Source of the DNA: Escherichia phage YDC107_1
Sequence record: CP025712.1
DNA: 46,701 nucleotides
Direction: 5' to 3' (one strand)
The notes below the pieces were generated by a model. The model was not told the DNA's origin and did not search any database. It saw only the letters and a program-made list of their open reading frames with translations. The position numbers and the translations under genes were made by a program. Shown here piece by piece: positions 16,609 through 41,193 of this stretch; position 1 is the first letter of the stretch, and every line of letters begins with the position of its first letter.

Positions 16609-17128
16609 TCAGCAACCCCGGTATCAGTTCATCCAGCGCGGCTGCTTTGTTCATGGCTTTGATGATATCCCGTTTCAGGAAATCAATGTGCCGGTTATCC
16701 AGCTCAGGAAAACGTCGCTGCACCGACAGAGGAATACCGTCGAGAATACTGGATATTTCCCTTGCTATACGCGACAGCACGAAAGTACAGAATGCGGTTT
16801 CCACCACTTCAGCCGATTCTTTGGCATTTTTCAGTTCCTGCGCCGTCGCCTGAGCACGAGTCAGGCGATGGCGCTCAAATTCAAGTGTTCCGGGGTGAAG
16901 ATCTGCCTCGCTGGCCAGCCGTAATTCTTCAACCTCCCGGCGCAGCTTTTCGTTCTCAATTTCAGCATCCCTTTCGGCATACCATTTTATGACGGCGGCA
17001 GAGTCATAAAGCACCTCATTACCCTTGCCACCGCCTCGCAGAACGGGCATTCCCTGCTCCTGCCAGTTCTGAATGGTACGGATACTCGCACCGAAAATGT
17101 CAGCCAGCTGCTTTTTGTTGACTTCCAT
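16583..17128 (-). CDS. nu1: Terminase small subunit Nu1
   Basis: 181 aa lambda Nu1-like with N-terminal HTH (MEVNKKQLADIFGASIRTIQNWQEQGMPV); 26-bp overlap with A. Confidence 0.9.
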
Positions 17129-17312
17129 TGTTCATTCCACGGACAAAAACAGAGAAAGGAAACGACAGAGGCCAAAAGGCCTGTTTTCAGCACCTGTCGT
17201 TTCCTTTCTTTTCAGGGGGTGTTTTAAATAAAAACATTAAGTTACGGAGAAGAAGAACGGAAACGCCTTAAACCGGAAAATTTTCATAAATAGCGAAAAC
17301 CCGCGCGCCTTC
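17129..17312 (-). other. cos site (cosB upstream of Nu1 plus cosN)
   Basis: Reverse complement of 17129-17290 matches the lambda left-end cosB sequence as I recall it. Cohesive-end equivalent at 17296-17307 reads GGGCGGAAGGCG on the minus strand versus lambda GGGCGGCGACCT. Confidence 0.75.
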
Positions 17313-17390
17313 CGCCCCGTAGCCTGCCGGATCGCCGGAAAGGACCCGCAAAGGTGAGAATAATTATCACTTGCATTAATATCCAGCTTC

Positions 17391-17559
17391 TTCCACCATC
17401 GCACCGGACGGGCGACTATGAGGGACAAAACCGCGCACCATAAACGCGGTAAAAACCCGGTGTGCATCGTTTTTGATTATTTCCGCACACTCGCGCAGAA
17501 GGAATTCCCCGTCGGGCTACGGTCATGGTTAATGCGGAAATACGGCGACGATGCAGCGC
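17391..17559. repeat. Direct repeat copy A (about 169 bp), partner at 18341..18509
   Basis: Shared …CATGAGGGACAAA…CGGTAAAAACCCGGTGTGCATCGTTTTTGATTATTTCCGCACACTCGCGCAGA…TTCCCCGTCGGGCTACGGTCATGGTTAATGCGGAAATACGGCGACGATGCAGCGC with a few mismatches. Confidence 0.85.
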
Positions 17560-17679
17560 ATGATGTGTCAGGCTTGAATACCTTTATCCGTTAAAAGGGA
17601 TATCAGTTAAGTTATCCCGTGCAGGGTATAAGCCATTATCAAAGCCACTCAGTAGCGAATGGCTTTTGTAATGGACTAT

Positions 17680-18276
17680 TTAATTAGTGATGCTGCGTGG
17701 CTTCATACAAATTTCAGAAATATGATTCTTTTCGTCCAAATGATGCTGGACATCATTTTTATCATCACTCAACAACTCTGCTGTTAATACAATCCCTGCT
17801 GTCTCAGATTTCCAGGAAATGCTGATATCCTGATCATCTGCATCAACATCATATTTTATCGAGTAAGGACTAAAGCTACGTCCAACGAACGCATCATTTA
17901 CCAGTACACGCCCACCCTGTCTGACCTGAAAGTCAACGCGCCCTGAAAGCTGATTTGCTGTTACAAGCAATGCCTTTTTTCTTTTTGTTTTATTGCTCAT
18001 TGCCACCAACTGTTCAGCCATCTCTCTTGTCACACTACCAGAAACTCTTTCTTGAATTTTCACAGAAAATTTTCTGGATGTAGTAGCATCGACATTAAAA
18101 AATCTGGATGTCATCAGGCAGTTATTAACAATTGGCATCAGCTCACTTACGATTGTAAAAAATTCCCGGTAAAGCTCATTTTGCTTTTCAACACACAGCT
18201 TTCCACAATCGTCCAGCTTACGCTCAAGAGCACTTAATCTTTCCATTATTGAATTAATTTTTTGCAACTCTTTCAT
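17680..18276 (-). CDS. Hypothetical protein (AT-rich moron between lysis genes and cos)
   Basis: 198 aa from MKELQKINSIMERLSALERK with a strong SD (GGAGG) upstream. The ORF-track start at 18537 (MRPWSH…) is a GTG inside a palindrome and probably not used. No family recognised. Confidence 0.6.
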   Translation of the reverse strand: MKELQKINSIMERLSALERKLDDCGKLCVEKQNELYREFFTIVSELMPIVNNCLMTSRFFNVDATTSRKFSVKIQERVSGSVTREMAEQLVAMSNKTKRKKALLVTANQLSGRVDFQVRQGGRVLVNDAFVGRSFSPYSIKYDVDADDQDISISWKSETAGIVLTAELLSDDKNDVQHHLDEKNHISEICMKPRSITN

Positions 18277-18299
18277 CAAAACCTCCTGACAAAGATACC

Positions 18300-18317
18300 G
18301 TGCGACCACGGTCGCAC
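18300..18317. repeat. 18-bp palindrome GTGCGACCACGGTCGCAC (candidate SopB-type centromere or protein-binding site), copy 1
   Basis: Perfect palindrome just upstream of the moron gene start. Confidence 0.6.
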
Positions 18318-18340
18318 GCTCCTGAATACATGCCCTGTTT

Positions 18341-18509
18341 CTTCCACCCTCGCACAGGACTGGCGAGCATGAGGGACAAACCCGCGAATCATTAGCGCGG
18401 TAAAAACCCGGTGTGCATCGTTTTTGATTATTTCCGCACACTCGCGCAGAGGAGTTCCCCGTCGGGCTACGGTCATGGTTAATGCGGAAATACGGCGACG
18501 ATGCAGCGC
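18341..18509. repeat. Direct repeat copy B (partner of 17391..17559)
   Basis: See copy A; together they bracket the 17680..18276 gene. Confidence 0.85.
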
Positions 18510-18519
18510 GGTATTTAAT

Positions 18520-18537
18520 GTGCGACCACGGTCGCAC
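18520..18537. repeat. 18-bp palindrome GTGCGACCACGGTCGCAC, copy 2
   Basis: Intergenic, between the DUF4406-like gene and direct repeat B. Confidence 0.6.
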
Positions 18538-18556
18538 ACGAGAAACAAAGAGATTT

Positions 18557-18868
18557 TTATGCTACAGAGGAACAAGCTGGCGGGTAATTCAGCGTAGTGA
18601 ATACCGGCATCTCCATCTTGTATGCGTAATGATACTCAGCAGTTGCTCCAGCAGACGCTTTCCAGCCAGGAAGCATCAAAATAGCATCAGCACAACGAAG
18701 CATTGCAAAGCAAATATCCATGTATTCACGTTGTGTCAGACCATTAGGCAAAGTGGCTGGATTCAAGACAGAGTGACCATGTCGTGACAAACGATCTGCC
18801 TCTTTATTAAAGGCGTCACGATTAAAGTTCTCATATCCAGTCATTGGCCCGGCAATATAAATTTTCAT
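18557..18868 (-). CDS. DUF4406-like small protein (nucleoside deoxyribosyltransferase-like fold)
   Basis: 103 aa, MKIYIAGPMTGYENFNRDAF… N-terminus typical of that family as I recall; function unknown. Confidence 0.5.
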   Translation of the reverse strand: MKIYIAGPMTGYENFNRDAFNKEADRLSRHGHSVLNPATLPNGLTQREYMDICFAMLRCADAILMLPGWKASAGATAEYHYAYKMEMPVFTTLNYPPACSSVA

Positions 18869-18909
18869 TCACTATCCAACAAATTGAGTTCGTTTTTGAT
18901 ACAGAGGGA

Positions 18910-19377
18910 TTAATTCGGGCATTGCGTCTTGATGTATTCCTGAAGCGTTCTCAGTGCTGTCTGGTCTCTGATGATTCCGTCCCGGATACCGAGAACGTTT
19001 CGTCCAGCAACTGGAGAGAGTTCGACGGTGGCATCATTGCCCATGCCGGAGGCGCTGGAGGTTTCGGCTGAGGATGGCACAGAGCATTTTCCTTTGACGA
19101 GCACCCGACCACCATTATCAAGCTTGCGCCGAAGAGCATCATTTTCAGCTTTCGCATCAGCCAACTCCTTCGTGTATTTTGCATCGAGCGCAGCAACATC
19201 ACGCTGACGCTGCTGCATGTCAGCGATGGTGGCGGTCGCCTGCTTCAGCTCACTGACTTTTTTATCACGCTGTTCTTTGTAGGCGATGGCGTTATCACGG
19301 TAATGATTAACAGCCCACGACAGGCAGACGATGATGCAGATAACCAGTGCGGAGATAATTGCGGTTACTCTGCTCAT
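18910..19377 (-). CDS. Rz: Spanin inner-membrane subunit Rz
   Basis: Lambda Rz-like N-terminus [30 protein letters not shown], coiled-coil periplasmic domain. Confidence 0.85.
18951..19157 (-). CDS. Rz1: Spanin outer-membrane lipoprotein Rz1 (embedded in Rz, +1 frame)
   Basis: [21 protein letters not shown] lipobox followed by a Pro-rich segment. Confidence 0.7.
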
Positions 19378-21559: not shown

Positions 21560-21577
21560 GTGCGACCGTGGTCGCAC
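21560..21577. repeat. 18-bp palindrome GTGCGACCGTGGTCGCAC, copy 3 (opposite orientation of the central dinucleotide)
   Basis: Intergenic, in the late regulatory region. Confidence 0.6.
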
Positions 21578-24687: not shown

Positions 24688-25106
24688 TACGCCACCTCCT
24701 GTAAATTTCCCTGATAAAAAGCCAGCACACGCTGCATAACTTCACTTTTCCGGCAATCGTGACAAATCATGTTCAAGCGCCTGTCGTAACGACGTATTTC
24801 TCCGTCAGGTAATGACCAGATAAGGTCTGGATCAACCACTACCGATGTCTTCGGCTTTACTCTTGATAGTTTTTTACGGGCGTTTTGCCAGTCCTTGCGT
24901 GCTTGTGCAGACAGAAATATCCCGGAGCCAGAGATATACAAATCACCACTGGCAGCAAGCTCTCTTGATAAACGACTAACAGCACACCGGCTAATACCAG
25001 TTTCATCCGCAAGTTGCCTAACCGTTCCTCGTCCATTCAGGCGCACGAGTTCCACAATTTGTTTATTCAGTTCTTCCCTCTGTTCTGGTGTAAAAGCCTT
25101 TGCCAT
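24687..25106 (-). CDS. Putative HTH DNA-binding protein
   Basis: 139 aa; HTH-like RQLADETGISRCAVSRLSREL. Confidence 0.5.
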   Translation of the reverse strand: MAKAFTPEQREELNKQIVELVRLNGRGTVRQLADETGISRCAVSRLSRELAASGDLYISGSGIFLSAQARKDWQNARKKLSRVKPKTSVVVDPDLIWSLPDGEIRRYDRRLNMICHDCRKSEVMQRVLAFYQGNLQEVA

Positions 25107-25932: not shown

Positions 25933-26233
25933 TTTCTTGTGCGACCACGGTCGCACCCTCTCTGATTTCCAAGTAACGCTTAATCCAAAGATTTTCTATA
26001 TGCTTATTACCTGGCTGATTTGATAAATACCAATCGGCAATTACAGACTGCTTATTACTATCTGGTCGTGTCCTGTAACCACAAGTTGGACACCAAATAA
26101 CATATTCATTTCTTACCCCCGAATACCTTAATTCTGGCTTCGACGGTTTCCTGAACATAACTTGTTTACAAAGGCAGAATGGCACTTCCTGCCCGATGGC
26201 GTTTGATGATTTCACTGCGCTTCTCCGCCGCAT
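25913..26233 (-). CDS. Hypothetical protein with CxxC zinc-ribbon motif
   Basis: 106-aa ORF with CPTCG; start uncertain. Confidence 0.4.
   Translation of the reverse strand: MRRRSAVKSSNAIGQEVPFCLCKQVMFRKPSKPELRYSGVRNEYVIWCPTCGYRTRPDSNKQSVIADWYLSNQPGNKHIENLWIKRYLEIREGATVVAQENENNAI
25939..25956. repeat. 18-bp palindrome GTGCGACCACGGTCGCAC, copy 4
   Basis: At the junction of two small early genes. Confidence 0.6.
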
Positions 26234-26876
26234 TTAATAATGCGGTTCGATTTAAGCTCAGACATCGCGACTTAATTAAAAGCCAGCGTTCTTTATAATC
26301 TTGTCTCCAGCTATCAATAGATATATTCAGTAGAAAACTCAGATGCCTGTCCTGTTCTCTCTCATCAACTGCCTCAGCACACGTAAGTTCTGATTTAACC
26401 TGTTGTGCCGCGTAATAAATCAATTTCCGCATGGCTTTTTTCGTGGAGGCCTTCATTTTTTTAAAGCCGCCCCCCGAATGAGCAACCAGAAAATCAAGCC
26501 ATAACCACTGACAAACAATCACATCATTGTTGTAATCAGGCTTGCATCCGTAGCAATAATAAAGCCAGGCTGATTCCTCGTTATTCAACTGACCAATAGC
26601 CCTGCGCCAGCTGGCGCTCTGAAAATCAATATCAGTGAGCAACATTGATGATTGTTTAAATGTTTTCCCCTGATGGAATCTAACCGGCTCAGCAGGAACG
26701 GACACTTCGTATGAGTTATCATCCCCCACACTGATTGACCGGACTGGTTTATTGTTAAACCGTCCTGATCTACCGAGACGCATCTGCTCAAGCTGGACCT
26801 CCAGAATGCCACGCTGGCGATAATGAACATCAGCCAATGCCGTAGAGACGCAGCTGCGTATATACTCAAGCTCCAC
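26166..26876 (-). CDS. Hypothetical early protein directly downstream of cro (regulator or Q-like candidate)
   Basis: 236 aa from a GTG start with SD AAGGAG; contains CYGC…C cysteines; family not recognised. Confidence 0.5.
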   Translation of the reverse strand: MELEYIRSCVSTALADVHYRQRGILEVQLEQMRLGRSGRFNNKPVRSISVGDDNSYEVSVPAEPVRFHQGKTFKQSSMLLTDIDFQSASWRRAIGQLNNEESAWLYYCYGCKPDYNNDVIVCQWLWLDFLVAHSGGGFKKMKASTKKAMRKLIYYAAQQVKSELTCAEAVDEREQDRHLSFLLNISIDSWRQDYKERWLLIKSRCLSLNRTALLNAAEKRSEIIKRHRAGSAILPL

Positions 26877-27087
26877 GCTTACGACTCTCCTTAATCGACT
26901 GCTTTACCCGCCGAGTTGTAAAGTCACTCTTCAGCTTATAAGCAGTACGAACTTCAATATCGCTTTGCCGCAATGAAGGAATCTCTCCAGCGGTTAACCA
27001 TTGGTAAACAGCTCCGGGTGTTACACCTACCCCTGCCGCTGCTTTTTCTACACTGCCAAAATGGCGAATAAGTTCTTCTGGTTTCAT
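26866..27087 (-). CDS. cro: Cro-like HTH repressor
   Basis: 73 aa from MKPEELIRHFGSVEKAAAGVGVTPGAVYQWL; divergent from the repressor gene. Confidence 0.7.
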   Translation of the reverse strand: MKPEELIRHFGSVEKAAAGVGVTPGAVYQWLTAGEIPSLRQSDIEVRTAYKLKSDFTTRRVKQSIKESRKRGA

Positions 27088-27118
27088 GTTGTTATTATAA
27101 ACAATAAACAACAATTAA

Positions 27119-27156
27119 AGCCAGCTATAATAAATAAATTTTATAGCCAGCTATAA
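27119..27156. promoter_or_regulatory. Operator region between cro and cB: two AGCCAGCTATAA repeats
   Basis: Repeats at 27119-27130 and 27145-27156; the second lies in the near-palindrome TTATAGCCAGCTATAA; AT-rich promoter context. Confidence 0.5.
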
Positions 27157-27178
27157 GAAGATCATTTATGATTACAGT

Positions 27179-27775
27179 ATGAAAACACGAGGCGAACGAC
27201 TGAAAGCACGCCGTTTAGAGATGAAGCTGACGTTGCGAGAAGTTGCTGAGGCTGTCGATATCTCTATAGCAGGCGTCCAAAACTTAGAACGTGGCGACGT
27301 AATGCCGTCACTGGAGATAGGTATTGCCCTGGCTAAGTGCTTACGCAAGCCAGTGCATTGGGTGCTATATGGGACAGAATATGACCCTGATCGCATTCCT
27401 GTTATTGGCACAACTGAAAGTGGGCCGGATGAAGAGTGGAAGCCGGGACAGGTTCCAAATACTGAGCGATTCCTGCCATTCATCAGCCAGCGCAATACTG
27501 TGTATGCGTTAACTATCAGCAATCTTACGCAGGGAAACTATCAGCCAGGCGATTTTCTCCTGGTCGATTCTGCGCTGGAACTGGTCCCCGGCGAGGATGT
27601 TCTGGTTCGTGATACTGCAGGAAATATCACTATCCAGCGCCTGGCCCGTTTTGATGATGAAAATTACTATCTGGATGGAACAAACTCACAACGCGCCATC
27701 TTCAGGAAAAGCGATCTTGAATTTGTTCACCAAATAGTCGGAACGATCAAATCATTCATGGTTGAGGGTAGATGA
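27179..27775 (+). CDS. cB: Prophage repressor (N15 CB / lambda CI analogue): HTH plus degenerate LexA-like C-terminal domain
   Basis: 198 aa; N-terminal HTH LTLREVAEAVDISIAGVQNLERG. Confidence 0.8.
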   Translation: MKTRGERLKARRLEMKLTLREVAEAVDISIAGVQNLERGDVMPSLEIGIALAKCLRKPVHWVLYGTEYDPDRIPVIGTTESGPDEEWKPGQVPNTERFLPFISQRNTVYALTISNLTQGNYQPGDFLLVDSALELVPGEDVLVRDTAGNITIQRLARFDDENYYLDGTNSQRAIFRKSDLEFVHQIVGTIKSFMVEGR

Positions 27776-27869
27776 CTTAATACGGGGTTTATTGTTTGCT
27801 GTAAATCTGGTTTAATGCAGGGCATATGTTCTGTGGGTTGACTCAGGTTACAGCAGCAGAAAAAAGACG

Positions 27870-27905
27870 AAAAAAAACCCGAGTCGGCAAACTCGGGTCC
27901 TTTTC
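27870..27905. terminator. Bidirectional rho-independent terminator after the repressor gene
   Basis: A-run, CCCGAGT-CGGCAAA-ACTCGGG, then T-run. Confidence 0.5.
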
Positions 27906-28020
27906 AGGAAGCAGCCACAACAACGCGACAGATTCCGTCAATTCAAGATGCGTTTATTGTGGCTGCTCCTGCGGATTTTTTCAACCCGAAAAAACATAAT
28001 TCGCATGGAATGGCTAAAAA

Positions 28021-31000
28021 ATGACATTAAACGATTTCTATGCGGATCGCTTTGGCAGCGATCCGTTCTCGCTAATTGAAGCAGCACGGGATGAACTAAC
28101 CGAGCTGGCACAGATGGCTGGTATCAACTGGCCTGCCTGTTCCGACAACATCCAACTCAACCCTCGCGGGGGGGTTGAGCGTTACTCTTCATACAATAAA
28201 ACATCTCCAGAAGCTCTCGAAAAGAGCCTGAAAGGACGCGTAGAAATTTACTCCAGGCTGGAACACAGCAAAGGGATTGATTACCCGTTCATTAACTTCG
28301 TCCATAAAGGCAGCGATGCTGGCTCATGGAGCGGTTTCTCCTTCCTGTTTTCTGAATATCGCCGTGAGCAACAACGGAATAATGCGACCGTGGTCGCACA
28401 ACCGGAAGAAGAACGGGAAAGAATAGAACGTCAGGCCGAAGCACGTCGTCGCCGTGAAGAACAAAAACGAATTAATGACCTGAAAAACAACCAAATGGAC
28501 CATGAACGTTTGCTGGGATGGCTGGCATTCCACAGCGCGTGGGAACATGCTCAGGCTGAAGACGGCTCATGGCCATATGCGATTAAAAAAGGTATTCGTG
28601 ACGTTTTTAGTTCATGTGATGTGCGTCGCGTGACCAGTCACGACAGTGCGAAATGGAGCCGGGGGCCAACCACATATATGGCTATCCCTCTGGCTCACCT
28701 GGACGGTCGTTATGATGGTCGTATTGTGGGTTGGCAGCGAATCGACAAACAAGGTGGGAAATACCAGACCAGCGCAGTAACCAGCGGCGATTTCGTCGGT
28801 GCCTGCTTTGTTATCGGTGAGCTGAAAGGGGCGCAAAACATCGCTGTTACAGAAGGTTTTGCTACTGGTGCATCCATCTGGCTTGCCACGAAAAAAGATA
28901 AACGCTTTGACGCGGTGGTTGTCGCTGTATCCGCTAACAACATGGTTCATGTTGTGGAACAACTGGTAAACATGTACCCGGCGGCAAAAATCACCTGCGC
29001 ACTGGATAATGACCGGAAATCTGCCACAGAAGGAAAAGGGAATACCGGCCTGCGGACTGGCTATGAAATCTTATCGAAATTCAACGATGTCCGCTGCGTC
29101 TACCCAACTTTTGAAGACGATCCGCAAATGGAGTGCAGTGACTTCAACGACCTGCACAAACTACGTGGACTTCGTGAAACAGCACGTCAACTATTTGCAA
29201 CAGCAAACCGCCTGAAAACCGGCACTGATTTGCTATCTCTGACGCTCAACCGCCTGAAGACAATTAAGCGGGATAACCGTCGTACTTTTGCCAAAGAGCT
29301 GCTGAGAGCGGTGGATATTGGCATGCTAACCTGTCCGGTTCCTAACAGTCCGTCAGATTTGTTTAACATGTTCTGTATCGTTCTGCGTGAAATGGGGCTG
29401 GAAAATATCTATCGCGCTACGGTAAAAGACCACATTGCCCGTCGCCTGAATAAAAAATGCCGTATTGCCCAGGCTCCGCGCTCTTTCAGCGAACGCATAA
29501 CTGATCCCAATAAACGCCCTCAACATATCACCTATAAGCGTTTTGAAACTTCGGTAATGACCTATGACGTCCTGAAGTACGTGCAATCACTACAGGGGAT
29601 CGTCATCGTTCGTGCTGGTATGGGTTCCGGCAAATCTACTGGATTGTTACGACCGTTAATGCATAGCTCAGAACGCGGTATCTCTGTAGCTCACCGTGTT
29701 TCCCTTATTGGTGGCCTGTGGGAAATGATGACTGAAGGAAAAGGTGTAAAAGCCGATATCCTGCACTATCAGGACCCTGGCTATCAGGAAATGGCTCCAT
29801 ACGCCAGTAAACTGACCATCTGCATAAACTCGATTGTTAAAAACTGCTGGCAACCGTTGATGCGCCAGCACGACTATTTTGGCTTTGACGAGGCCACACA
29901 AGGGCTACGTGCCGTTCTTTCCGGTCGGGCTATGGAAAACCCAGTGGCTGTATTCAATACGCTAATTGACGCGCTGGCCAGAACGGAACAACACCCAATA
30001 ATGGTGGATGCTGATGCGAACGATCTGCTGGTTGACCTGGCTGAACTGGCTATGAAACGCCGTGAAGAACTAGGTTTACCGGCATGGCTGCAGATCCACG
30101 TAATTGAATTACCTGTTGATGTTCGCAACCGCGAAACAGGTGAGCCAATCCGGGTTTTTTATACAGAAAAAGATCGCATCATGACCGAGGTGGTGAAAGC
30201 TGTATCGGATGGCGAAAAAATCATGTTGGCCACCGACAGCTCCACCTTTGCAGAAGATGTGACCGCCACCCTGAGAATGCATTTTCCTGGTAAGAAATTT
30301 CTGTGCGTAAACCAGAAAAGCAAACAGGATGAAGAAGTCGATGCTTTTACCAACCAGCCAAAAGTAATGGTGATGAAATACGATGGACTGATCTACAGCC
30401 CGTCGATTTCCTCCGGGGTGTCATTTGAGAAAAAACATTTTGACCGTCATTTCGGCATGTTCTGCGGTGAAGTTGTGCCCAGCGACGCAGTGCAAATGCT
30501 ACGCCGCGACCGTACAGCAAAAGAATTTATTATCGGCTTTGATAAAGCTCGTGCAAAACGCGAGACTGATCCGCAAAAAATAGAACGTGCATTCGCCCAG
30601 GCATTACTTGCTACCGCAGGCATGAACGGTGAACTGACGGATGTCGTTTTCGATGGCGACCGTATATCAATGGGGGTGGCCAATACCGACTTTACCAGGA
30701 TGAAAATTAAAGCTGCCGCTATTGAAGCGTCTGCGCGTAACGACTACGCCAGCAACATGATCTGCATCATGCACAGCGACGGTTATAAGGTATCGCCATT
30801 AGCTACTGATTATGCCGCAAATGATTTTGGTAAAGAGCTGCGCAAAGAAGCGCGGGATATTGTGTGGGAACAGACGCTGGATCTGCACCTCAATACAGAG
30901 ACACCAGAAGAATCAGAGCGTGAAGAACTACTAAAAAAACGTGCGCTAACGCTTGAAGAACAGGCAAAACTTGTCCGCTGGGATATTGAGAACGAACTGA

Positions 31001-32004
31001 AACTACCGGTTGAAGAAGGCACGCTGAAATTCTATTTCGATGGTGCTCGAGACAAAATTCGCCGTTATGAAACGATGCTGCTTGATGAAGTCACAGCCCG
31101 TCGTTATGACCGTGAAGAAGCGGCTATCAATTTTACATACGCATACCGCCAGACCGGACAGTGGCAATATTTTGTGGTGACCGCGATGACACGCGAGCAG
31201 GCTGATGATGTATTCAAAGCGAAATTTCCGGGAATAATCGACTACAAGGTAAAAGCCACCCCAGCTGTTGAGGTCGGCATGCGCGGATTCTATGCGCTTA
31301 AATCAGCAACTCTCCGGCAGTATTTTATCGACTGCGGTATCGACCCTGAAACTATGACTGGCGAAGCGACGCAGGAACGCCTTAAGTTCGCTCGAGATAA
31401 TCTCATGACAGCAGAACGCCGTGACCTGTTGAATAACGTTCTGCGCATTGGTGGTTTTATGACACCAAAAGGGAAGCCTAAAGTGCCGGAAGCACTGTTT
31501 AAAAACATCTGCGACTCTCTCGGCCTAAAAACAGGAAAACGTCGCGGCAGAGATGGCGATAAGCGCCCGACATTGCGTTTTGTTGAGCCTGAGTCTGTAG
31601 CATTTATGCTTGATATTCTTACGCAACGTCAGGAGGACGGTATGACGTTGAAAGCTCGCAAGGCAGAAAAATCAACGACCGAAGTGGATCGCGATTTGTC
31701 ATTAAATATATATATGAATGGTGAAACGCGATCCACAAACACGGAGGAACAGGATCCCCCTCGTTCAGCTATATCACAGGCTTTGGCTGTATTGCCGGTG
31801 GCTGTTCCTGAGTCCTGGGCGATGAGTGCTCTGCCATCAGCCGAACTGGAATCTATCAGGGGGTGGTCAGTTGACAGCATCGCATACACGTTTGCAGCCC
31901 TTTATATGACTGAGTTTATGGATTTGCTGTCCGGTCATGAGATTAAGTTGCTGAAGGCTTTTATAGGCCCACGACATGCCAGCGATGAGTTTTGTGTAGT
32001 TTAG
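28021..32004 (+). CDS. repA: Replication protein: Toprim primase fused to a helicase/NTPase (N15 RepA / P4 alpha-like)
   Basis: 1327 aa; Toprim motifs (VTEGFATGASIW, ALDNDRKSATEGKG); Walker A GMGSGKST; Walker B-like FDEATQ. Confidence 0.9.
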   Translation: MTLNDFYADRFGSDPFSLIEAARDELTELAQMAGINWPACSDNIQLNPRGGVERYSSYNKTSPEALEKSLKGRVEIYSRLEHSKGIDYPFINFVHKGSDAGSWSGFSFLFSEYRREQQRNNATVVAQPEEERERIERQAEARRRREEQKRINDLKNNQMDHERLLGWLAFHSAWEHAQAEDGSWPYAIKKGIRDVFSSCDVRRVTSHDSAKWSRGPTTYMAIPLAHLDGRYDGRIVGWQRIDKQGGKYQTSAVTSGDFVGACFVIGELKGAQNIAVTEGFATGASIWLATKKDKRFDAVVVAVSANNMVHVVEQLVNMYPAAKITCALDNDRKSATEGKGNTGLRTGYEILSKFNDVRCVYPTFEDDPQMECSDFNDLHKLRGLRETARQLFATANRLKTGTDLLSLTLNRLKTIKRDNRRTFAKELLRAVDIGMLTCPVPNSPSDLFNMFCIVLREMGLENIYRATVKDHIARRLNKKCRIAQAPRSFSERITDPNKRPQHITYKRFETSVMTYDVLKYVQSLQGIVIVRAGMGSGKSTGLLRPLMHSSERGISVAHRVSLIGGLWEMMTEGKGVKADILHYQDPGYQEMAPYASKLTICINSIVKNCWQPLMRQHDYFGFDEATQGLRAVLSGRAMENPVAVFNTLIDALARTEQHPIMVDADANDLLVDLAELAMKRREELGLPAWLQIHVIELPVDVRNRETGEPIRVFYTEKDRIMTEVVKAVSDGEKIMLATDSSTFAEDVTATLRMHFPGKKFLCVNQKSKQDEEVDAFTNQPKVMVMKYDGLIYSPSISSGVSFEKKHFDRHFGMFCGEVVPSDAVQMLRRDRTAKEFIIGFDKARAKRETDPQKIERAFAQALLATAGMNGELTDVVFDGDRISMGVANTDFTRMKIKAAAIEASARNDYASNMICIMHSDGYKVSPLATDYAANDFGKELRKEARDIVWEQTLDLHLNTETPEESEREELLKKRALTLEEQAKLVRWDIENELKLPVEEGTLKFYFDGARDKIRRYETMLLDEVTARRYDREEAAINFTYAYRQTGQWQYFVVTAMTREQADDVFKAKFPGIIDYKVKATPAVEVGMRGFYALKSATLRQYFIDCGIDPETMTGEATQERLKFARDNLMTAERRDLLNNVLRIGGFMTPKGKPKVPEALFKNICDSLGLKTGKRRGRDGDKRPTLRFVEPESVAFMLDILTQRQEDGMTLKARKAEKSTTEVDRDLSLNIYMNGETRSTNTEEQDPPRSAISQALAVLPVAVPESWAMSALPSAELESIRGWSVDSIAYTFAALYMTEFMDLLSGHEIKLLKAFIGPRHASDEFCVV
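28383..28398. repeat. 16-bp core TGCGACCGTGGTCGCA, copy 5, inside repA
   Basis: Outer bases not complementary (16 of 18); mirrored copy at 45080-45097. Confidence 0.5.
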
Positions 32005-32021
32005 AGGGTAGAAGCGTGGGA

Positions 32022-32288
32022 ATGATGCAAGAGTGCCTCGTTTTGATTGAAGGGTATGATCCGTATGTTGTTAACGTCAGCAGAATGGATACTGGCTATA
32101 GCGACTACAAAACTGGTCGTGAACTGCCGTTCACCATCATCAGGATGAATAGCTTTGGCGATGATGATGCTGTTTATTGCTGTATAGCCAGCGATAAAAA
32201 CATGGAAGACCGGACAGATGAAGCCCGTATGCTATTGAGGAAATATAAGGTAAAGCCGTTATCAGAGAATAACGCTGAGAGGGGTTAA
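32022..32288 (+). CDS. Hypothetical protein
   Basis: From ATG MMQECLVLIEGYDP (ORF-track start 31992 is TTG). Confidence 0.45.
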   Translation: MMQECLVLIEGYDPYVVNVSRMDTGYSDYKTGRELPFTIIRMNSFGDDDAVYCCIASDKNMEDRTDEARMLLRKYKVKPLSENNAERG

Positions 32289-32290
32289 AA

Positions 32291-32686
32291 ATGGCAGTTC
32301 AATCATACAAATACGAATCCCCTTTGGATAAGGGATACATTCGTATCAAGTTAAGTCGTTCTCAGCATAAGGCTATTTTTAAGGTAAGGAAAATTCGCAT
32401 ATTGGATGCGTATGCGTATTACTACAACGGTGAAAATGTTGTTGTTGAACACTTTCTTGCACGATGGTTTGTAGCTCTGATTTTTGTCCCTCTCCTGTTA
32501 ATTGGTACTTTTGTGGATGGTTTTCCTAGTACATGGCGGGAGATAAAGAAAGGCCTATTCCCGCGTAAGTACGGCAGATTTTCGCAAGATAGCTGGCGAG
32601 TTATACCTGGTAAACATTCTGTGGATGAGCAGCCGATTGTTGATTACTGGTTGAAGCATATGGCTGATGCTAAAAAAGTTGATTGA
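32291..32686 (+). CDS. Hypothetical membrane protein
   Basis: 131 aa with SD GAGAGGGG; TM segment WFVALIFVPLLLIGTFV. Confidence 0.5.
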   Translation: MAVQSYKYESPLDKGYIRIKLSRSQHKAIFKVRKIRILDAYAYYYNGENVVVEHFLARWFVALIFVPLLLIGTFVDGFPSTWREIKKGLFPRKYGRFSQDSWRVIPGKHSVDEQPIVDYWLKHMADAKKVD

Positions 32687-32704
32687 GTTGTGGAAGGAGT
32701 ATTT

Positions 32705-32929
32705 ATGAACTGTAACAAAAATGAAGAAACTCGCCTGGTTTGGACGGTAGTAATCGGAGATAAAGAGGGCGGTGAAGAGCCTCATTTTGATTATTCTGTG
32801 GCTTTGCAGGCTCTCATCCTTGAAGCGCAGAGATACCAACAAGAGATGCAGAAGAACCCTCAACTGGAACCTCGACCAATTGGCCTATTCTGCGAGCGAG
32901 TATCAGCGGCGGAACTCCCTGATATCTGA
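32705..32929 (+). CDS. Hypothetical small acidic protein
   Basis: MNCNKNEETRLVWTVVIG…; SD GGAAGGA. Confidence 0.45.
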   Translation: MNCNKNEETRLVWTVVIGDKEGGEEPHFDYSVALQALILEAQRYQQEMQKNPQLEPRPIGLFCERVSAAELPDI

Positions 32930-33120
32930 TGCCCTCCAACAGCTGATCAGGTTCTGATCAGTTAGTAAAGCAAACTATAAAAACACCTGTCCCCGTGACT
33001 GGTCACGGGGTAAAATGTCTTTGCAAATTATTGACGTGTGCGTCGTTTTGACGGTAAAGTTACTTCGCTGCGGTAAATCCCGTAGCCGGGACTCTCAACC
33101 CCGAAATCCGAACGACGCAC

Positions 33121-33143
33121 AACACGCGCCAGCGTGTTTTTTT
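33121..33143 (+). terminator. Rho-independent terminator ending a short untranslated transcript upstream of the anti-repressor operon
   Basis: AACACGC-GCCA-GCGTGTT followed by a T-run. Confidence 0.45.
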
Positions 33144-33309
33144 GTGTGTATGAGCCTGCGCATATCCGAATTATGGTGGCTCAGGTGGGGCAGCCGAAAG
33201 GCTGGCCGGTGTCGTTTGGGCCGGTGTTGAGAACCCCGCTTGGGCTACCACCCCATAGAGATTCTCAACTCTGGTGGTAGCACTGTTTTACCAAACAAGA
33301 GTGCATACC

Positions 33310-33474
33310 ATGTTCAAATTCAAATTTGCGGCAGTCGTTCGCACAGACAAAAAGTCACACATCCATCATCTTTCCACCATCGCGTCATCTGAACGGGAAG
33401 CTCGTCGCCAGTTCGCCAGCCGGTTTGTCCTGGTATTGTCTGCCCGTATTCCGGTGCGCGAGGTGGCTGCATGA
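33310..33474 (+). CDS. Small protein, first gene of the anti-repressor operon (Icd-like position)
   Basis: 54 aa from MFKFKFAAVVRTDKK. Confidence 0.35.
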   Translation: MFKFKFAAVVRTDKKSHIHHLSTIASSEREARRQFASRFVLVLSARIPVREVAA

Positions 33475-33704
33475 ATCAGGTAAAAATGAACACTGTTGGC
33501 CTGCTGGAATCGTTGGATGAACGTCTGGCTCAGGTCTATGCGCTTGTGTCATCAGCCCATCGTACAGTCTCCAGTTGTGAGGCGTCGATTTATCTCTCAG
33601 AAGCCGGGAAGCTCCTTCAAATCGCGTGTGAGTTGACACACAAAGCACAGGGGTATTCAGCATCTCTCTCGTCGCAATTGCAGCACAATAAGGAGGCCAA
33701 ATGA
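33471..33704 (+). CDS. Hypothetical protein (anti-repressor operon)
   Basis: 77 aa, SD GAGGTGG, ATGA-coupled to neighbours. Confidence 0.45.
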   Translation: MNQVKMNTVGLLESLDERLAQVYALVSSAHRTVSSCEASIYLSEAGKLLQIACELTHKAQGYSASLSSQLQHNKEAK

Positions 33705-34477
33705 GCGCGTTAGCTGTATTTTCGTTTCAGGAAGAGCATCAGGTTCGTGTAGTGATGATTGATAGCGATCCGTGGTTTGTTGCATCTGATGTGTGTATGG
33801 CGGCGGGTATTGATTCTACGGCCATTAGAAAGTTGGATGAGGACGAAAAGGGTCTGCATTTAATGCAGACCCCTGGCGGATACCAGAATGTTTCAATCAT
33901 CAAGGAGTCAGGTCTATACACCCTAATCCTCCGCTGCCGTGACGCGGTGAAGCAAGGCACAACAGCTTGGCGGTTTCGCAAATGGGTAACGAACGAAGTC
34001 TTGCCCTCTATTCGCAAAAATGGAGAGTACGTTTACGTTGAGCCAGAGCCAATGCGAGCAGCAGAGCCGTTGAACTGGAGGCAGAAAGAGTATCTGCGAG
34101 GGCTGATTAACGATATTGCACAAAGTTTTCAATACCGAAATGCCTGGATTAGCGGTGTATGGTTGGCTTTGCGTCGGGCGTGTCGTAATCCATCCCCGAA
34201 CCCCATAACTGTTGATGATTTGCCAGCAATAACGGCAGAACTGCGACGGATTTTGACGGCTGCTGAGTCGGCATTGGGGAACATGCGCACGTATGAACGA
34301 GAGTTGTTGCGTGATGTTGTTCGTGGTGGTAGGCGGAGTATGTCGTGTGGTGATTTGCCCATCACCGATATCAACTCTGATCTGGAAAAGGCGTTACCCG
34401 CGCATTTTGAACTGGCAGTTCAAAAACTTGAGCAGTTGTCCGCGCAGCTAAAGCCAGCAGAAATCACCAATAAATAG
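33701..34477 (+). CDS. ant: Anti-repressor with Bro-N domain
   Basis: 258 aa; N-terminus FSFQEEHQVRVVMIDSDPWFVASDVCMAAGI… typical of Bro-N/Ant; SD AGGAGG. Confidence 0.75.
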   Translation: MSALAVFSFQEEHQVRVVMIDSDPWFVASDVCMAAGIDSTAIRKLDEDEKGLHLMQTPGGYQNVSIIKESGLYTLILRCRDAVKQGTTAWRFRKWVTNEVLPSIRKNGEYVYVEPEPMRAAEPLNWRQKEYLRGLINDIAQSFQYRNAWISGVWLALRRACRNPSPNPITVDDLPAITAELRRILTAAESALGNMRTYERELLRDVVRGGRRSMSCGDLPITDINSDLEKALPAHFELAVQKLEQLSAQLKPAEITNK

Positions 34478-34649
34478 GGTTGGCCAGCCCGAATTGATGC
34501 CCTTCTTAGTGAGGGGAAGCCTCGCAGTCTGGGCGGTGATGTCTGTGGTTGCAGCCGCGTTTCCTCCGTTACTTCTGCCCTTTGCAGGGGGCAGGCGAGG
34601 CAGGCCACATAACAAGGCACCGATTAATTCGGTGCCTTTAACGTATGCT

Positions 34650-36551: not shown

Positions 36552-36714
36552 CTTTCCTCTCCTGATTATCCGCTCGGATTATCGTAACACAATTTGAGAA
36601 TAAGATAACTAATAACGCGTTAACTTAGGCACAAACTAACAGAACACAATAACGGATAATAAATAAAAACACAATATCGGAACGTTAAAATTTGTTCCTT
36701 GACTTTGTTCTGAA

Positions 36715-36770
36715 AATCAGCACATAATTTCCCATTATACGCGCGTATAATGGGAAATTATGTGCTGATT
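36715..36770. other. telRL-like telomere resolution site; centre of dyad symmetry between 36742 and 36743
   Basis: AATCAGCACATAATTT-CCCATTATACGCGCGTATAATGGG-AAATTATGTGCTGATT, same architecture as N15 telRL as I recall. Confidence 0.8.
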
Positions 36771-36933
36771 TTCAGAACAAAGTCAAGGAACAAATTTTAA
36801 CGTTCCGATATTGTGTTTTTATTTATTATCCGTTATTGTGTTCTGTTAGTTTGTGCCTAAGTTAACGCGTTATTAGTTATCTTATTCTCAAATTGTGTTA
36901 CGATAATCCGAGCGGATAATCAGGAGAGGAAAG

Positions 36934-38833: not shown

Positions 38834-39005
38834 AGCATACGTTAAAGGCACCGAATTAATCGGTGCCTTGTTATGTGGCCTGCCTCGCCTGCCCCCTGCA
38901 AAGGGCAGAAGTAACGGAGGAAACGCGGCTGCAACCACAGACATCACCGCCCAGACTGCGAGGCTTCCCCTCACTAAGAAGGGCATCAATTCGGGCTGGC
39001 CAACC

Positions 39006-39782
39006 CTATTTATTGGTGATTTCTGCTGGCTTTAGCTGCGCGGACAACTGCTCAAGTTTTTGAACTGCCAGTTCAAAATGCGCGGGTAACGCCTTTTCCA
39101 GATCAGAGTTGATATCGGTGATGGGCAAATCACCACACGACATACTCCGCCTACCACCACGAACAACATCACGCAACAACTCTCGTTCATACGTGCGCAT
39201 GTTCCCCAATGCCGACTCAGCAGCCGTCAAAATCCGTCGCAGTTCTGCCGTTATTGCTGGCAAATCATCAACAGTTATGGGGTTCGGGGATGGATTACGA
39301 CACGCCCGACGCAAAGCCAACCATACACCGCTAATCCAGGCATTTCGGTATTGAAAACTTTGTGCAATATCGTTAATCAGCCCTCGCAGATACTCTTTCT
39401 GCCTCCAGTTCAACGGCTCTGCTGCTCGCATTGGCTCTGGCTCAACGTAAACGTACTCTCCATTTTTGCGAATAGAGGGCAAGACTTCGTTCGTTACCCA
39501 TTTGCGAAACCGCCAAGCTGTTGTGCCTTGCTTCACCGCGTCACGGCAGCGGAGGATTAGGGTGTATAGACCTGACTCCTTGATGATTGAAACATTCTGG
39601 TATCCGCCAGGGGTCTGCATTAAATGCAGACCCTTTTCGTCCTCATCCAACTTTCTAATGGCCGTAGAATCAATACCCGCCGCCATACACACATCAGATG
39701 CAACAAACCACGGATCGCTATCAATCATCACTACACGAACCTGATGCTCTTCCTGAAACGAAAATACAGCTAACGCGCTCAT
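39006..39782 (-). CDS. Mirror copy of the Bro-N anti-repressor gene (intact)
   Basis: Identical 258-aa translation to 33701..34477. Confidence 0.5.
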   Translation of the reverse strand: MSALAVFSFQEEHQVRVVMIDSDPWFVASDVCMAAGIDSTAIRKLDEDEKGLHLMQTPGGYQNVSIIKESGLYTLILRCRDAVKQGTTAWRFRKWVTNEVLPSIRKNGEYVYVEPEPMRAAEPLNWRQKEYLRGLINDIAQSFQYRNAWISGVWLALRRACRNPSPNPITVDDLPAITAELRRILTAAESALGNMRTYERELLRDVVRGGRRSMSCGDLPITDINSDLEKALPAHFELAVQKLEQLSAQLKPAEITNK

Positions 39783-40012: not shown

Positions 40013-40173
40013 GCAGCCACCTCGCGCACCGGAATACGGGCAGACAATACCAGGACAAACCGGCTGGCGAACTGGCGACGAGCTTCCCGTTCAGATGACG
40101 CGATGGTGGAAAGATGATGGATGTGTGACTTTTTGTCTGTGCGAACGACTGCCGCAAATTTGAATTTGAACAT
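40009..40173 (-). CDS. Mirror copy of the Icd-position small gene
   Basis: Identical translation to 33310..33474. Confidence 0.3.
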   Translation of the reverse strand: MFKFKFAAVVRTDKKSHIHHLSTIASSEREARRQFASRFVLVLSARIPVREVAA

Positions 40174-40778: not shown

Positions 40779-40796
40779 AAATACTCCTTCCACAAC

Positions 40797-41191: not shown

Positions 41192-41193
41192 TT

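What the first reader, a model, noticed from the sequence alone, without database searches (positions are those of the whole stretch)
17391..18509. AT-rich moron inserted between the lysis genes and cos, bracketed by 169-bp direct repeats
Two roughly 90%-identical repeats flank a 198-aa gene with a strong SD and noticeably lower GC than its surroundings. The repeat pattern suggests insertion by duplication or recombination at the usual moron hot-spot next to cos. The protein has no family I can recognise; lysogenic-conversion or defence functions are typical for this position. Palindrome copy 1 sits in its promoter region.
Basis: partly seen in the sequence, partly recalled or inferred. Interest (0 to 1): 0.6.

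Follow-up and report, generated by a model that had tools for sequence, protein, structure and literature searches.

The report
Broken cargo gene between recombination repeats
The "moron" is real, but here it is the deletion-damaged remnant of a two-gene accessory cassette in an N15-like phage-plasmid; it is bracketed by two copies of a common lambdoid intergenic element at which recombination occurs, and the nearby palindrome is a plasmid-partition (SopB) binding site, not a promoter feature.

Summary
Two direct repeats (17372-17559 and 18323-18509; 169 of 188 positions identical) flank an AT-rich (38% GC) 198-codon ORF with a strong Shine-Dalgarno sequence, between the lysis genes and cos.

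The interpretation needs revising in four ways.
1. The window is an N15-like linear plasmid-prophage.
2. The 198-aa ORF is truncated. An 833-bp deletion between 7-bp repeats removed the C-terminal third of a 286-aa protein (A) and nearly all of a 149-aa two-TM membrane protein (B). Phage PhiR46_1 and about 20 E. coli records keep both genes.
3. The repeats are not an insertion scar. They are two alleles of an element that is single-copy in about 490 phage records, including lambda (46868-46974, upstream of bor). Relatives exist with the cassette but no upstream repeat. Others have an "empty" site whose single element is a copy1/copy2 chimera, so the repeats act as homologous-recombination joints.
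4. The 18-nt palindrome is identical to N15 centromere site IR4. It occurs at five syntenic places, and two copies flank repeat copy 2.

A is an Escherichia-only orphan family. B is widespread in phages. Neither has a known function. This is ordinary lambdoid mosaicism with some instructive details; interest is modest.

The parts
17306..17317 (-). cosN cohesive-end equivalent (GGGCGGAAGGCG). cosQ-like GGGTCCT lies at ~17341-17347.
   Evidence: Aligned by eye and by regex to the ends of N15, lambda and 434. The 434 record annotates cosQ at the matching place.
17372..17559 (+). Repeat copy 1 of the conserved lambdoid element 'E'. The most conserved core is 17452-17560. It is the native, cos-proximal copy.
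   Evidence: Its homology to Ayreon and mEp460 continues through 17674.
17418..17594 (+). 58-codon ORF inside copy 1, annotated by PGAP in relatives as a hypothetical protein. Probably not a conserved gene.
   Evidence: About half (48) of 88 unique homologues keep an ORF of at least 50 codons from the aligned ATG, and copy 2 has a stop at codon 9. pN/pS is 0.68 with no third-position excess. No family hit.
17560..17674 (.). Tail of the native element, with a degenerate bidirectional terminator-type hairpin at ~17643-17672. It marks the downstream boundary of the cassette.
   Evidence: Homologous to Ayreon, where a terminator is annotated there. The window copy has one stem mismatch and was not called by the scan.
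17680..17698 (-). Last ~16-23 nt of gene B (149-aa membrane protein). These now supply the out-of-frame codons ITN-stop of the fused ORF. The 7-bp deletion junction GCTGCGT is at 17692-17698.
   Evidence: PhiR46_1 carries 833 extra bp between GCTGCGT at L001 2993-2999 and 3826-3832.
17680..18276 (-). 198-codon ORF. It comprises residues 1-195 of protein A (286 aa in full) plus 3 foreign codons, and lacks the C-terminal alpha/beta domain.
   Evidence: (PHROG 2571 matched end to end by the 286-aa form).
18282..18287 (-). Shine-Dalgarno AGGAGG of gene A.
   Evidence: Sequence.
18300..18317 (.). N15 IR4-type SopB centromere palindrome, 23 nt upstream of the A start codon. It also scores as a terminator-like hairpin on the late strand.
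18323..18509 (+). Repeat copy 2 of element E (the extra copy). Its small ORF is broken.
   Evidence: It is absent from L005, which carries the same cassette.
18520..18537 (.). Second IR4-type SopB palindrome, 220 bp from the first.
18557..18868 (-). DUF4406 gene (nucleoside 2-deoxyribosyltransferase-like), same Pfam family and relative position as N15 gene 57. It forms the upstream border of the cargo slot.
21560..21577 (.). SopB palindrome syntenic with N15 IR3, upstream of the late-promoter/methylase region.
25939..25956 (.). SopB palindrome syntenic with N15 IR2, downstream of Q.
28382..28399 (.). SopB palindrome (1 mismatch) syntenic with N15 IR1, inside repA. Its mirror image at 45080-45097 belongs to the fold-back duplication.

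Best explanation
The window is an N15-like linear plasmid-prophage. Its late region runs on the - strand in this order: S-R-Rz, a DUF4406 gene, SopB site, element E (copy 2), SopB site, gene A', element E (copy 1), cos, Nu1.

The DNA between DUF4406/IR4 and cos is the cargo slot of this phage group. N15 itself carries a Dcm methylase and gp59 there. In this lineage the cargo was a two-gene cassette: A (286 aa, cytoplasmic) and B (149 aa, two TM helices), followed by a hairpin terminator.

In the window, an 833-bp deletion between two 7-bp repeats (GCTGCGT) removed the last 91 residues of A and all but the last ~20 nt of B. The 198-aa ORF is therefore a remnant (shown).

The flanking 'direct repeats' are two different alleles of a ~190-nt intergenic element that nearly all Escherichia lambdoid phages carry once, between the lysis genes and cos (shown). 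They came to bracket the cassette through homologous exchange between phages at conserved joints, namely E and the IR palindrome (inferred). They now act as substrates for recombination that removes, or could reinstall, the cassette. This is inferred from empty sites whose single E is a copy1/copy2 chimera with two different switch points.

The palindrome is a SopB partition site of the IR4 type, duplicated so that it flanks copy 2. Sequence identity and synteny are shown; SopB binding is inferred.

Gene A has no detectable promoter of its own and lies 23 nt behind a terminator-like, SopB-bound hairpin. I infer that the cassette is read from the Q-antiterminated late transcript and acts in the lytic cycle. 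My best guess is a membrane-directed exclusion or competition function through B. In this window that function is most likely lost.
For: N15-like identity:
- PGAP annotation of a near-identical ~46.7-kb record shows protelomerase, SopA/ParB and CyRepA1 RepA.
- The window is 72-77% identical to N15 along its length.
- SopB of a near-identical relative plasmid (L136) is 73% identical to N15 SopB.

Truncation:
- PhiR46_1 is ~99% identical on both sides but has 833 extra bp at a 7-bp microhomology.
- The 286-aa form matches PHROG 2571 over 1-291/291, and B matches PHROG 3054.
- All full-length homologues are 276-286 aa.

The repeats are a resident element:
- One copy in 425-490 phage records.
- Present in lambda at 46868-46974 and in DLP12 between borD and ybcV.
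- Found in 4899 of 5426 E. coli genomes.

The bracket is not needed for the cassette:
- L005 has A+B with one palindrome and no copy 2.

Recombination at the repeats:
- A synthetic 'popped-out' junction is matched end to end at 98.6-99.8% by an N15-like plasmid (L147) and a chromosomal prophage (L146).
- In L147, E is copy-1-like at the 17 left differences and copy-2-like at the 2 right ones. In L146, E is copy-1-like at all 19, yet joined to copy 2's right flank.

Palindrome:
- It is identical to N15 IR4. N15 has exactly four such sites, at 33479, 35930, 41124 and 45561.
- These match the IR1-IR4 oligonucleotides in PMC7205306 Table 4.
- Window sites 28382, 25939 and 21560 map to IR1-3 through the BLAST offsets.
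- Chance expectation is 0.

Expression:
- No promoter-like site on the - strand; the IR scores as a terminator-like hairpin. N15 annotates IR4 as a putative terminator.

B in other settings:
- 488 homologous protein clusters across Enterobacteriaceae.
- Downstream of gene N, beside sieB in some, in P22-like prophages.
- Translationally coupled to a KilA-N gene between lysis genes and terminase in Klebsiella.
- Present in phages of Vibrio, Ralstonia and the ~146-kb Justusliebigvirus group, most of which I take (own knowledge) to be lytic.
Against: - Direction of the events is not proven. The empty sites could be ancestral, and the bracketed form could have been built from them by two crossovers. 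The chimeric pattern fits both, though pop-out is simpler.
- The truncated allele is by far the commonest single sequence of the family (495 contigs, 725 index blocks). It sits in several phage backgrounds. That could mean the 198-aa form is functional or even favoured. However, all eight copies examined are nucleotide-identical (0/597 differences), as are their flanks, so this shows recent spread rather than selection.
- No expression data exist. A weak or non-sigma-70 promoter cannot be excluded.
- SopB binding to the two sites was not tested, and sopAB is outside this window.
- The function proposed for A-B is a guess. A has no homologues outside Escherichia, its AF2 model is poor (pLDDT 47), and B's model is mediocre (pLDDT 64) with no fold matches.
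Confidence: 0.8

Rival explanations
1. An intact single-gene moron was inserted next to cos by an event that duplicated ~170-190 bp of target, and the gene is a working lysogenic-conversion or defence gene with a promoter at the palindrome.
For: Direct repeats flank AT-rich DNA with a strong SD. The slot is a known variable region. The 198-aa allele is very common.
Against: The two copies differ at 19 positions, and copy 2 groups with the alleles of other phages, including its palindrome flank. That is not expected for an in-situ duplication. The cassette exists without the bracket (L005). The ORF is a deletion product of a two-gene unit. The palindrome is a SopB site. No promoter-like site was found.
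Confidence: 0.05
2. The truncated 198-aa protein (coiled-coil N-terminus plus beta-rich middle domain) is itself functional and selected, for example as a disarmed or dominant-negative form of a toxic A-B system. This would explain why it is the most widespread allele.
For: The exact sequence occurs on 495 contigs or 725 index blocks, in N15-like plasmids and in chromosomal lambdoid prophages with different holins, Q genes or Nu1. The deletion cuts just at the start of the putative P-loop-like C-terminal domain, at '...MKPRS|GMT', leaving the first two predicted domains whole.
Against: There are zero nucleotide differences in the ORF and its flanks among eight backgrounds, so no selection signal can be read. 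The end of the ORF is an accidental out-of-frame fusion. There are no expression or phenotype data.
Confidence: 0.15
3. The repeated element is a functional unit in its own right, and its second copy between two SopB sites is selected. Candidates are a structured RNA or DNA hairpin (long imperfect stem 17461-17559), a small-protein gene, or a regulatory region next to bor.
For: The ~108-nt core is nearly invariant in 88 unique homologues. It is kept at ~80% identity in lambda and DLP12 while the flanks are unrelated. Predicted folding is better than shuffles (z = -2.2 on the + strand, -3.4 on the - strand). A 23-pair helix is 96.9% paired across 10 diverged sequences, with 2 compensatory pairs. 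Orientation relative to late transcription is the same in every case examined.
Against: Covariation is weak: the 2-pair count is reached by 103 of 500 shuffles. There is no Rfam match. The element seems confined to Escherichia/Shigella phages, so conservation may reflect recent exchange. The small ORF shows no coding signature. Indels of 1 and 9 nt occur in the core. N15 itself lacks the element.
Confidence: 0.25

Closest known systems
Lambdoid 'morons' (Juhala et al. 2000, cited in PMC4104026), e.g. lambda bor and lom
   Same: Extra, compositionally deviant DNA in a late-operon gap. It is present in some relatives and absent from others at exactly the same site, and is followed by a hairpin terminator. 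The slot between Rz and cos also holds bor, ybcV and ylcI in other phages.
   Different: No promoter was detected. The unit is two genes oriented with the late operon, whereas bor, ybcV and ylcI are antisense to it. This copy is internally deleted.
N15 centromere sites IR1-IR4, bound by SopB (Ravin & Lane 1999, cited in PMC7205306; sequences in its Table 4)
   Same: The 18-nt sequence is identical to IR4. The sites are dispersed, and their positions match N15: inside repA, after Q, before the late promoter, and after the DUF4406/cargo region.
   Different: Five sites rather than four. The IR4 position holds two copies 220 bp apart, enclosing a lambdoid element that N15 lacks. The same sites are also found in integrated chromosomal prophages that received this module (L146, L191).
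N15 genes 58-59 (Dcm methylase and gp59), in the same DUF4406-to-cos slot
   Same: Same position and same flanking landmarks: DUF4406 gene, IR4, cos.
   Different: The cargo is unrelated (A vs gp59: no similarity).
Lambda RexA/RexB exclusion system
   Same: A ~280-aa soluble protein is followed by a ~145-aa membrane protein in a temperate phage. B homologues sit beside rexAB, sieB or N in other prophages.
   Different: No sequence relationship (hhalign probability 2.3% and 0.2%). B has two predicted TM helices, whereas RexB has four (my own knowledge). The genomic position and likely timing of expression also differ.
Conserved boundary or 'linker' sequences at module joints of lambdoid mosaics (proposed in the HK620/HK97 literature; recalled from my own knowledge, not checked here)
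   Same: A short conserved non-coding block flanks variable cargo and coincides with the crossover points seen in relatives.
   Different: Here the block is present twice in direct orientation in one genome. That makes the cargo excisable by ordinary homologous recombination.

Membership tests
Moron (accessory transcription unit in a lambdoid late operon) | Present or absent between otherwise collinear relatives at the same site | tested here: met
   Empty sites L146 and L147 match a synthetic cassette-less junction end to end at 98.6-99.8%.
Moron (accessory transcription unit in a lambdoid late operon) | Base composition different from the neighbours | tested here: met
   GC 0.384 against 0.52-0.55.
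Moron (accessory transcription unit in a lambdoid late operon) | Own promoter | tested here: inconclusive
   The consensus scan finds no sigma-70-like site on the - strand in 17100-19000. Only 23 nt separate the IR from the ATG. There are no expression data.
Moron (accessory transcription unit in a lambdoid late operon) | Own terminator | tested here: inconclusive
   The hairpin at ~17643-17672 is homologous to a terminator annotated in Ayreon. It has a stem mismatch here and was not called by the scan.
N15-type SopB centromere site (IR) | Inverted repeat with the N15 IR sequence GTGCGACCnnGGTCGCAC | tested here: met
   Identical to N15 IR4. Six matches in the window against 0 expected.
N15-type SopB centromere site (IR) | Several dispersed copies at N15-syntenic positions on a replicon encoding SopA/SopB | tested here: met
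   Sites 28382, 25939, 21560 and 18300/18520 correspond to N15 33479, 35930, 41124 and 45561. sopA/parB are annotated in the near-identical plasmid L136, and its SopB is 73% identical to N15's. sopAB itself lies outside this window.
N15-type SopB centromere site (IR) | Bound by SopB and required for plasmid stability | not testable with these tools
   Needs ChIP or EMSA and stability assays.
Transposon-type insertion with target-site duplication | Repeats created by the insertion (identical at birth, absent from uninserted sites) and a transposase or element ends | tested here: not met
   The repeats are 188 nt and differ at 19 positions. The sequence pre-exists as a single copy in hundreds of phages. 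No transposase is present.
RexAB-like exclusion system | Homology to RexA (PF15969) and RexB (PF15968) | tested here: not met
   No Pfam hits. hhalign probability 2.3% and 0.2%.
Known anti-phage defence systems (PADLOC-DB 2.0) | Significant match to a defence protein model | tested here: not met
   Only chance-level hits, E 0.01-0.05.
Rfam RNA families (for the repeated element) | Match to a curated covariance model | tested here: not met
   Only sub-threshold miRNA noise at the cos hairpin; nothing in the repeats.
P-loop NTPase (C-terminal domain of full-length A, deleted in the window) | Walker A GxxxxGK[ST] and Walker B hhhhD[DE], with an NTPase fold | tested here: inconclusive
   Foldseek's best hits are thymidine kinases and PilT-type ATPases, but at E ~0.01, from a model with mean pLDDT 47 (about 50-83 per 10-residue block over the C-terminal ~100 residues). 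By eye, 'VVIIDDVE' fits Walker B, but the Walker A lysine is Met ('SGMT').

The most novel reading that the evidence does not exclude
The full A-B pair would be a previously undescribed two-gene phage module for exclusion or inter-phage competition. A is an Escherichia-only orphan with coiled coil, beta domain and a degenerate P-loop-like domain. B is a widely conserved two-TM phage membrane protein. The module would ride in the IR4-cos cargo slot of N15-like phage-plasmids. The very common 833-bp-deleted allele in this window would then be a disarmed version that spread because losing the membrane effector is advantageous to the host-plasmid pair.
Probability: 0.2. Interest if true: 0.55.

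Novelty: new member of a known kind. Interest (0 to 1): 0.3.

Why it matters
Mostly as a clean worked example. It shows how cargo in a temperate phage or phage-plasmid is gained, shuffled and lost by ordinary homologous recombination at short conserved joints. All stages are still visible in public genomes: the full cassette, the cassette without the bracket, an internal deletion, and a precise pop-out.

Three side results could be followed up.
1. An unannotated ~108-nt block is conserved upstream of bor in lambda itself and in about 90% of E. coli genomes.
2. N15-type SopB centromere sites are duplicated, and have been exported into integrated prophages.
3. A 149-aa membrane protein family of unknown role is shared by temperate phages and by phages I take to be lytic.

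Tried and rejected
- Protein family searches for A, B, the 198-aa form and the 58-aa ORF (Pfam, NCBIfam, PADLOC, PDB sequences) returned nothing usable. PHROGs gave only unknown-function families.
- An exhaustive HMMER search of 1.8 billion representatives with A found only its own family, fragments, and two weak partial relatives of the middle domain.
- AF2 on A gave pLDDT 47, and Foldseek against PDB gave no hit at E<=0.001. AF2 on B gave pLDDT 64, and BFVD gave nothing.
- The RexAB idea was rejected by profile comparison. A is unrelated to N15 gp59.
- I considered the repeat as a known sRNA. Rfam was negative. The prophage anti-sRNAs of Tree et al. 2014 lie 3' of PR', not here, and the text search of the Pas sRNA preprint found none of the locus terms (terminase, lysis, cos, spanin, nohA).
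- I considered the 58-aa ORF as the reason the repeat is conserved. This was rejected on ORF breakage and pN/pS.
- I tried to widen the element's phylogenetic range for a covariation test with a degenerate pattern over one genome per species. Only Escherichia species gave real hits; the rest look like lambda control-DNA contamination.
- A literature search for the PhiR46_1 source paper and for lambda ribosome-profiling notes on this interval found nothing useful.
- My first estimate of the deletion (827 bp) was wrong. Offsets and repeat spacing give 833 bp.
Full report
**What is in the sequence.** The region reads, on the - strand (the direction of late transcription), in this order:
- holin, endolysin and Rz (20143 to 18910);
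- a DUF4406 gene (18868-18557);
- an 18-nt palindrome (18537-18520);
- repeat copy 2 (18509-18323);
- the same palindrome again (18317-18300);
- AGGAGG, then a 198-codon ORF (18276-17680);
- a ~115-nt tail with a degenerate hairpin;
- repeat copy 1 (17559-17372);
- cosQ and cosN (cosN at 17317-17306);
- Nu1 and terminase A.

The two repeats align over 188/187 nt with 169 identical columns and one 1-nt indel. Seventeen of the 19 differences lie in the left 80 nt. The ORF has 38.4% GC against 52-55% around it.

**Which phage this is.** The stretch is 99.9-100% identical to four E. coli records; two are ~46-kb plasmid records and two are larger (68-75 kb). A near-identical ~46.7-kb record is annotated with protelomerase, SopA/ParB, a CyRepA1 replication protein, a Q antiterminator and lambda-like head and tail genes. 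The window is collinear with phage N15 at 72-77% identity. It is thus an N15-like linear plasmid-prophage.

In N15 the same place reads Rz-like gene, gp56, gp57 (DUF4406), gp58 (Dcm methylase), a stem-loop, gp59, then cos. The interval between DUF4406 and cos is therefore a cargo slot with different contents in different members. Other lambdoid phages hold bor, ybcV and ylcI/ynfO between Rz and cos.

**The 198-aa gene is a deletion product.** The nearest phage, PhiR46_1, is ~99% identical on both sides. It carries 833 additional bp exactly at window 17692-17698, between two copies of GCTGCGT. The core-to-core spacing of the repeats is 1784 bp there and 951 bp here.

In PhiR46_1 the ORF is 286 aa (protein A). 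It is followed by a 149-aa protein with two predicted transmembrane helices (protein B). The 286-aa form matches PHROG 2571 over its whole length (1-291/291), and B matches PHROG 3054. All full-length relatives of A are 276-286 aa.

The window keeps residues 1-195 of A, fused out of frame to the last codons of B, giving ...MKPRS-ITN-stop. About 20 complete E. coli records carry the full pair and four carry the deleted form.

In the large protein collection, however, the exact 198-aa sequence is the commonest allele: 495 contigs and 725 index blocks. It occurs in N15-like plasmids and in chromosomal lambdoid prophages with different holins, Q genes or Nu1 genes. The eight copies I compared show 0/597 nucleotide differences and identical flanks. 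This indicates recent horizontal spread of the module and says nothing about selection on the protein.

**What the repeats are.** The repeat is not a scar of the insertion.
- Megablast and blastn find the same ~190-nt element once per genome in 425-490 phage records: Stx phages, mEp460, Ayreon, 434, P27 and lambda.
- It occurs in 4899 of 5426 complete E. coli genomes.

An alignment of 88 unique homologues shows a nearly invariant ~108-nt core (17452-17560), a second conserved patch (17382-17432), and a variable hairpin between them. Lambda has the core at 46868-46974, in the unannotated gap between lambdap78 and bor. DLP12 has it between ybcV and borD. In 434 and P27 it lies 115-180 bp upstream of bor. 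In every case examined, its orientation is antisense to late transcription.

Copy 1 in the window continues into the same downstream tail and terminator hairpin as in Ayreon and mEp460, so it is the resident copy. Copy 2, together with the palindrome on its cos-ward side and the 16-nt spacer, matches at 92-94% the cos-proximal unit of another group of phages (L015, L016, L074, L116). There the order is cos, palindrome, element.

**Is the element a gene or an RNA?** A 58-codon ORF on the + strand (17418-17594) is annotated in several records. Three results argue against it being a conserved gene:
- about half (48) of the 88 unique homologues keep an ORF of at least 50 codons from the aligned ATG, and copy 2 stops at codon 9;
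- among the 14 unique sequences of the 21 homologues with an intact 58-codon ORF, pN/pS is 0.68, and variable sites fall 11/5/7 over codon positions 1/2/3;
- indels of 1 and 9 nt occur in the core.

The core can fold into a long imperfect hairpin. Folding z-scores are -2.2 on the + strand and -3.4 on the - strand. Across ten sequences down to ~75% identity, 96.9% of cells in the 33 predicted pairs are standard pairs. Only two pairs show compensatory changes, a count that 103 of 500 shuffles also reach.

Rfam has nothing here. A pattern scan of one genome per species found real copies only in Escherichia species. I therefore treat the element as conserved and probably non-coding, of unknown function. 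Recent exchange may explain much of its conservation.

**How the bracket arose and what it does now.** Three kinds of relatives fix the logic.
1. L005, a chromosomal prophage, carries A+B at 98.7% identity with one palindrome directly followed by DUF4406, and no copy 2. The cassette therefore does not depend on the bracket.
2. I built the junction expected if the two repeats recombined (window 16900-17559 joined to 18510-18900). It is matched end to end, in one piece, at 99.8% in a chromosomal lambdoid prophage (L146) and at 98.6% in a 45.9-kb N15-like plasmid (L147).
3. At the 19 positions that distinguish the copies, L147 is copy-1-like for the left 17 and copy-2-like for the right two. L146 is copy-1-like throughout, but continues into copy 2's right flank.

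Two different switch points inside the repeat are what homologous recombination between the copies would leave. The opposite direction, building the bracketed form from such sites and a cos-palindrome-element phage by two crossovers, is not excluded. In either direction, the element and the palindrome are the crossover joints.

**The palindrome.** GTGCGACCACGGTCGCAC occurs at 18300, 18520 and 25939. It occurs with a GT centre at 21560, and with one mismatch at 28382 and 45080. None is expected by chance. The 45080 site is the mirror image of 28382, because the window folds back on itself (see below).

N15 has exactly four such sites, at 33479, 35930, 41124 and 45561. These correspond to the IR1-IR4 oligonucleotides listed for the N15 centromere in PMC7205306. 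IR4 is identical to the window's palindrome, including the flanking C and G.

Through the BLAST offsets, window sites 28382, 25939 and 21560 correspond to IR1 (in repA), IR2 (after Q) and IR3 (before the late promoter). The pair at 18300/18520 corresponds to IR4. The SopB of a near-identical relative plasmid (L136) is 73% identical to N15 SopB.

The 'palindrome in the promoter region' is therefore a partition site, here duplicated around repeat copy 2. On the late strand it also scores as a terminator-like hairpin, as N15's annotation says of IR4. No sigma-70-like promoter was found on the gene's strand.

**What the cassette might do.** A is an orphan family. It has fifteen clusters, all Escherichia or Shigella, and one phage record among 50,697. 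Nothing beyond fragments and two weak partial relatives turned up in 1.8 billion representatives.

Its model is poor overall (pLDDT 47). It suggests an N-terminal helical hairpin, a beta-rich middle and a small alpha/beta C-terminal domain. The best structural neighbours are thymidine kinases and PilT-type ATPases, but only at E ~0.01. By eye, 'VVIIDDVE' resembles a Walker B motif, while the Walker A lysine is Met. The deletion removes exactly this domain.

B has 488 homologous protein clusters across Enterobacteriaceae. It sits in other accessory hot spots:
- downstream of gene N (immediately in some, after a few small ORFs in others), beside sieB in some and with rexAB upstream of N in one, in P22-like and lambdoid prophages;
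- translationally coupled to a KilA-N gene between lysis genes and terminase in a Klebsiella prophage.

B also occurs in phages of Vibrio, Ralstonia and the ~146-kb Justusliebigvirus group, most of which I take (own knowledge) to be lytic. This argues for a lytic-cycle role rather than a lysogen-only role.

A RexAB-like reading was tested and failed at the sequence level. PADLOC has no match. My working guess is a late-expressed, membrane-directed exclusion or competition module. This is inference only, and in this window the effector is gone.

**Verdict.** It is a decayed copy of a two-gene cargo in the IR4-cos slot of an N15-like phage-plasmid. It is bracketed by two alleles of a ubiquitous lambdoid joint element, with duplicated SopB centromere sites. 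This is a new member of known kinds (morons, N15 IR sites, mosaic joints), and interest is modest.

Noticed in passing
window 26776-36716 and 36769-46701, centre ~36742: The last ~10 kb of the window is a 99.9% inverted copy of the preceding ~10 kb. The two halves meet at the palindrome CCCATTATACGCGCGTATAATGGG, which aligns with N15's annotated tel inverted-repeat region (24775-24830, cut at 24802/3). The sequence reads through a hairpin telomere and back, either as an assembly fold-back or a head-to-head replication intermediate. As a result, the tail-fibre and sopAB end of the plasmid is missing from the window.
   Followed up: partly
lambda NC_001416 46868-46974 (L137 969-1075); window 17452-17560: The ~108-nt core of the repeat is conserved at ~80% in phage lambda, in the unannotated gap between lambdap78 and bor. 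It is present in about 90% of complete E. coli genomes (median 2 copies). It can form a long imperfect hairpin. No Rfam family or annotation covers it.
   Followed up: partly
L148-L183 (genome-contig scan): The element pattern hit contigs of ~3.5 kb or ~48.4 kb in assemblies labelled Cohnella, Flavobacterium, Pedobacter, Pseudomonas, Kitasatospora, MAGs and others. These look like lambda control-DNA contamination of public assemblies, not real homologues.
   Followed up: no
L146 (NZ_CP178656.1 chromosome), L191, L005: N15-type SopB centromere palindromes occur in integrated chromosomal lambdoid prophages that have Q/NinH-type late regions. The plasmid-phage module has therefore been passed to non-plasmid phages.
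   Followed up: partly
L127-L135, L131: Homologues of the 149-aa membrane protein B sit downstream of gene N (in some directly beside sieB; in one locus rexAB lies upstream of N) in Salmonella and E. coli prophages. In a Klebsiella prophage the gene overlaps the stop of a KilA-N gene. B appears to be a free-standing accessory membrane protein that pairs with varying partners.
   Followed up: partly
window 17680-18276 (allele frequency): The exact 198-aa truncated protein is recorded on 495 contigs (725 index blocks). That is far more than any single full-length allele (at most 29 contigs). Eight different phage backgrounds show no nucleotide differences.
   Followed up: yes
window 17153-17209: A 25-nt inverted repeat (84% complementary) lies between cos and the Nu1 start. 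It accounts for the only sub-threshold Rfam hits (miRNA families). It corresponds to the hairpin region upstream of Nu1 in lambda (lambda sequence recalled from my own knowledge).
   Followed up: no
window 18557-18868: The DUF4406 (nucleoside 2-deoxyribosyltransferase-like) gene belongs to the same Pfam family and occupies the same relative position as N15 gene 57. It marks the fixed upstream edge of the variable slot.
   Followed up: partly
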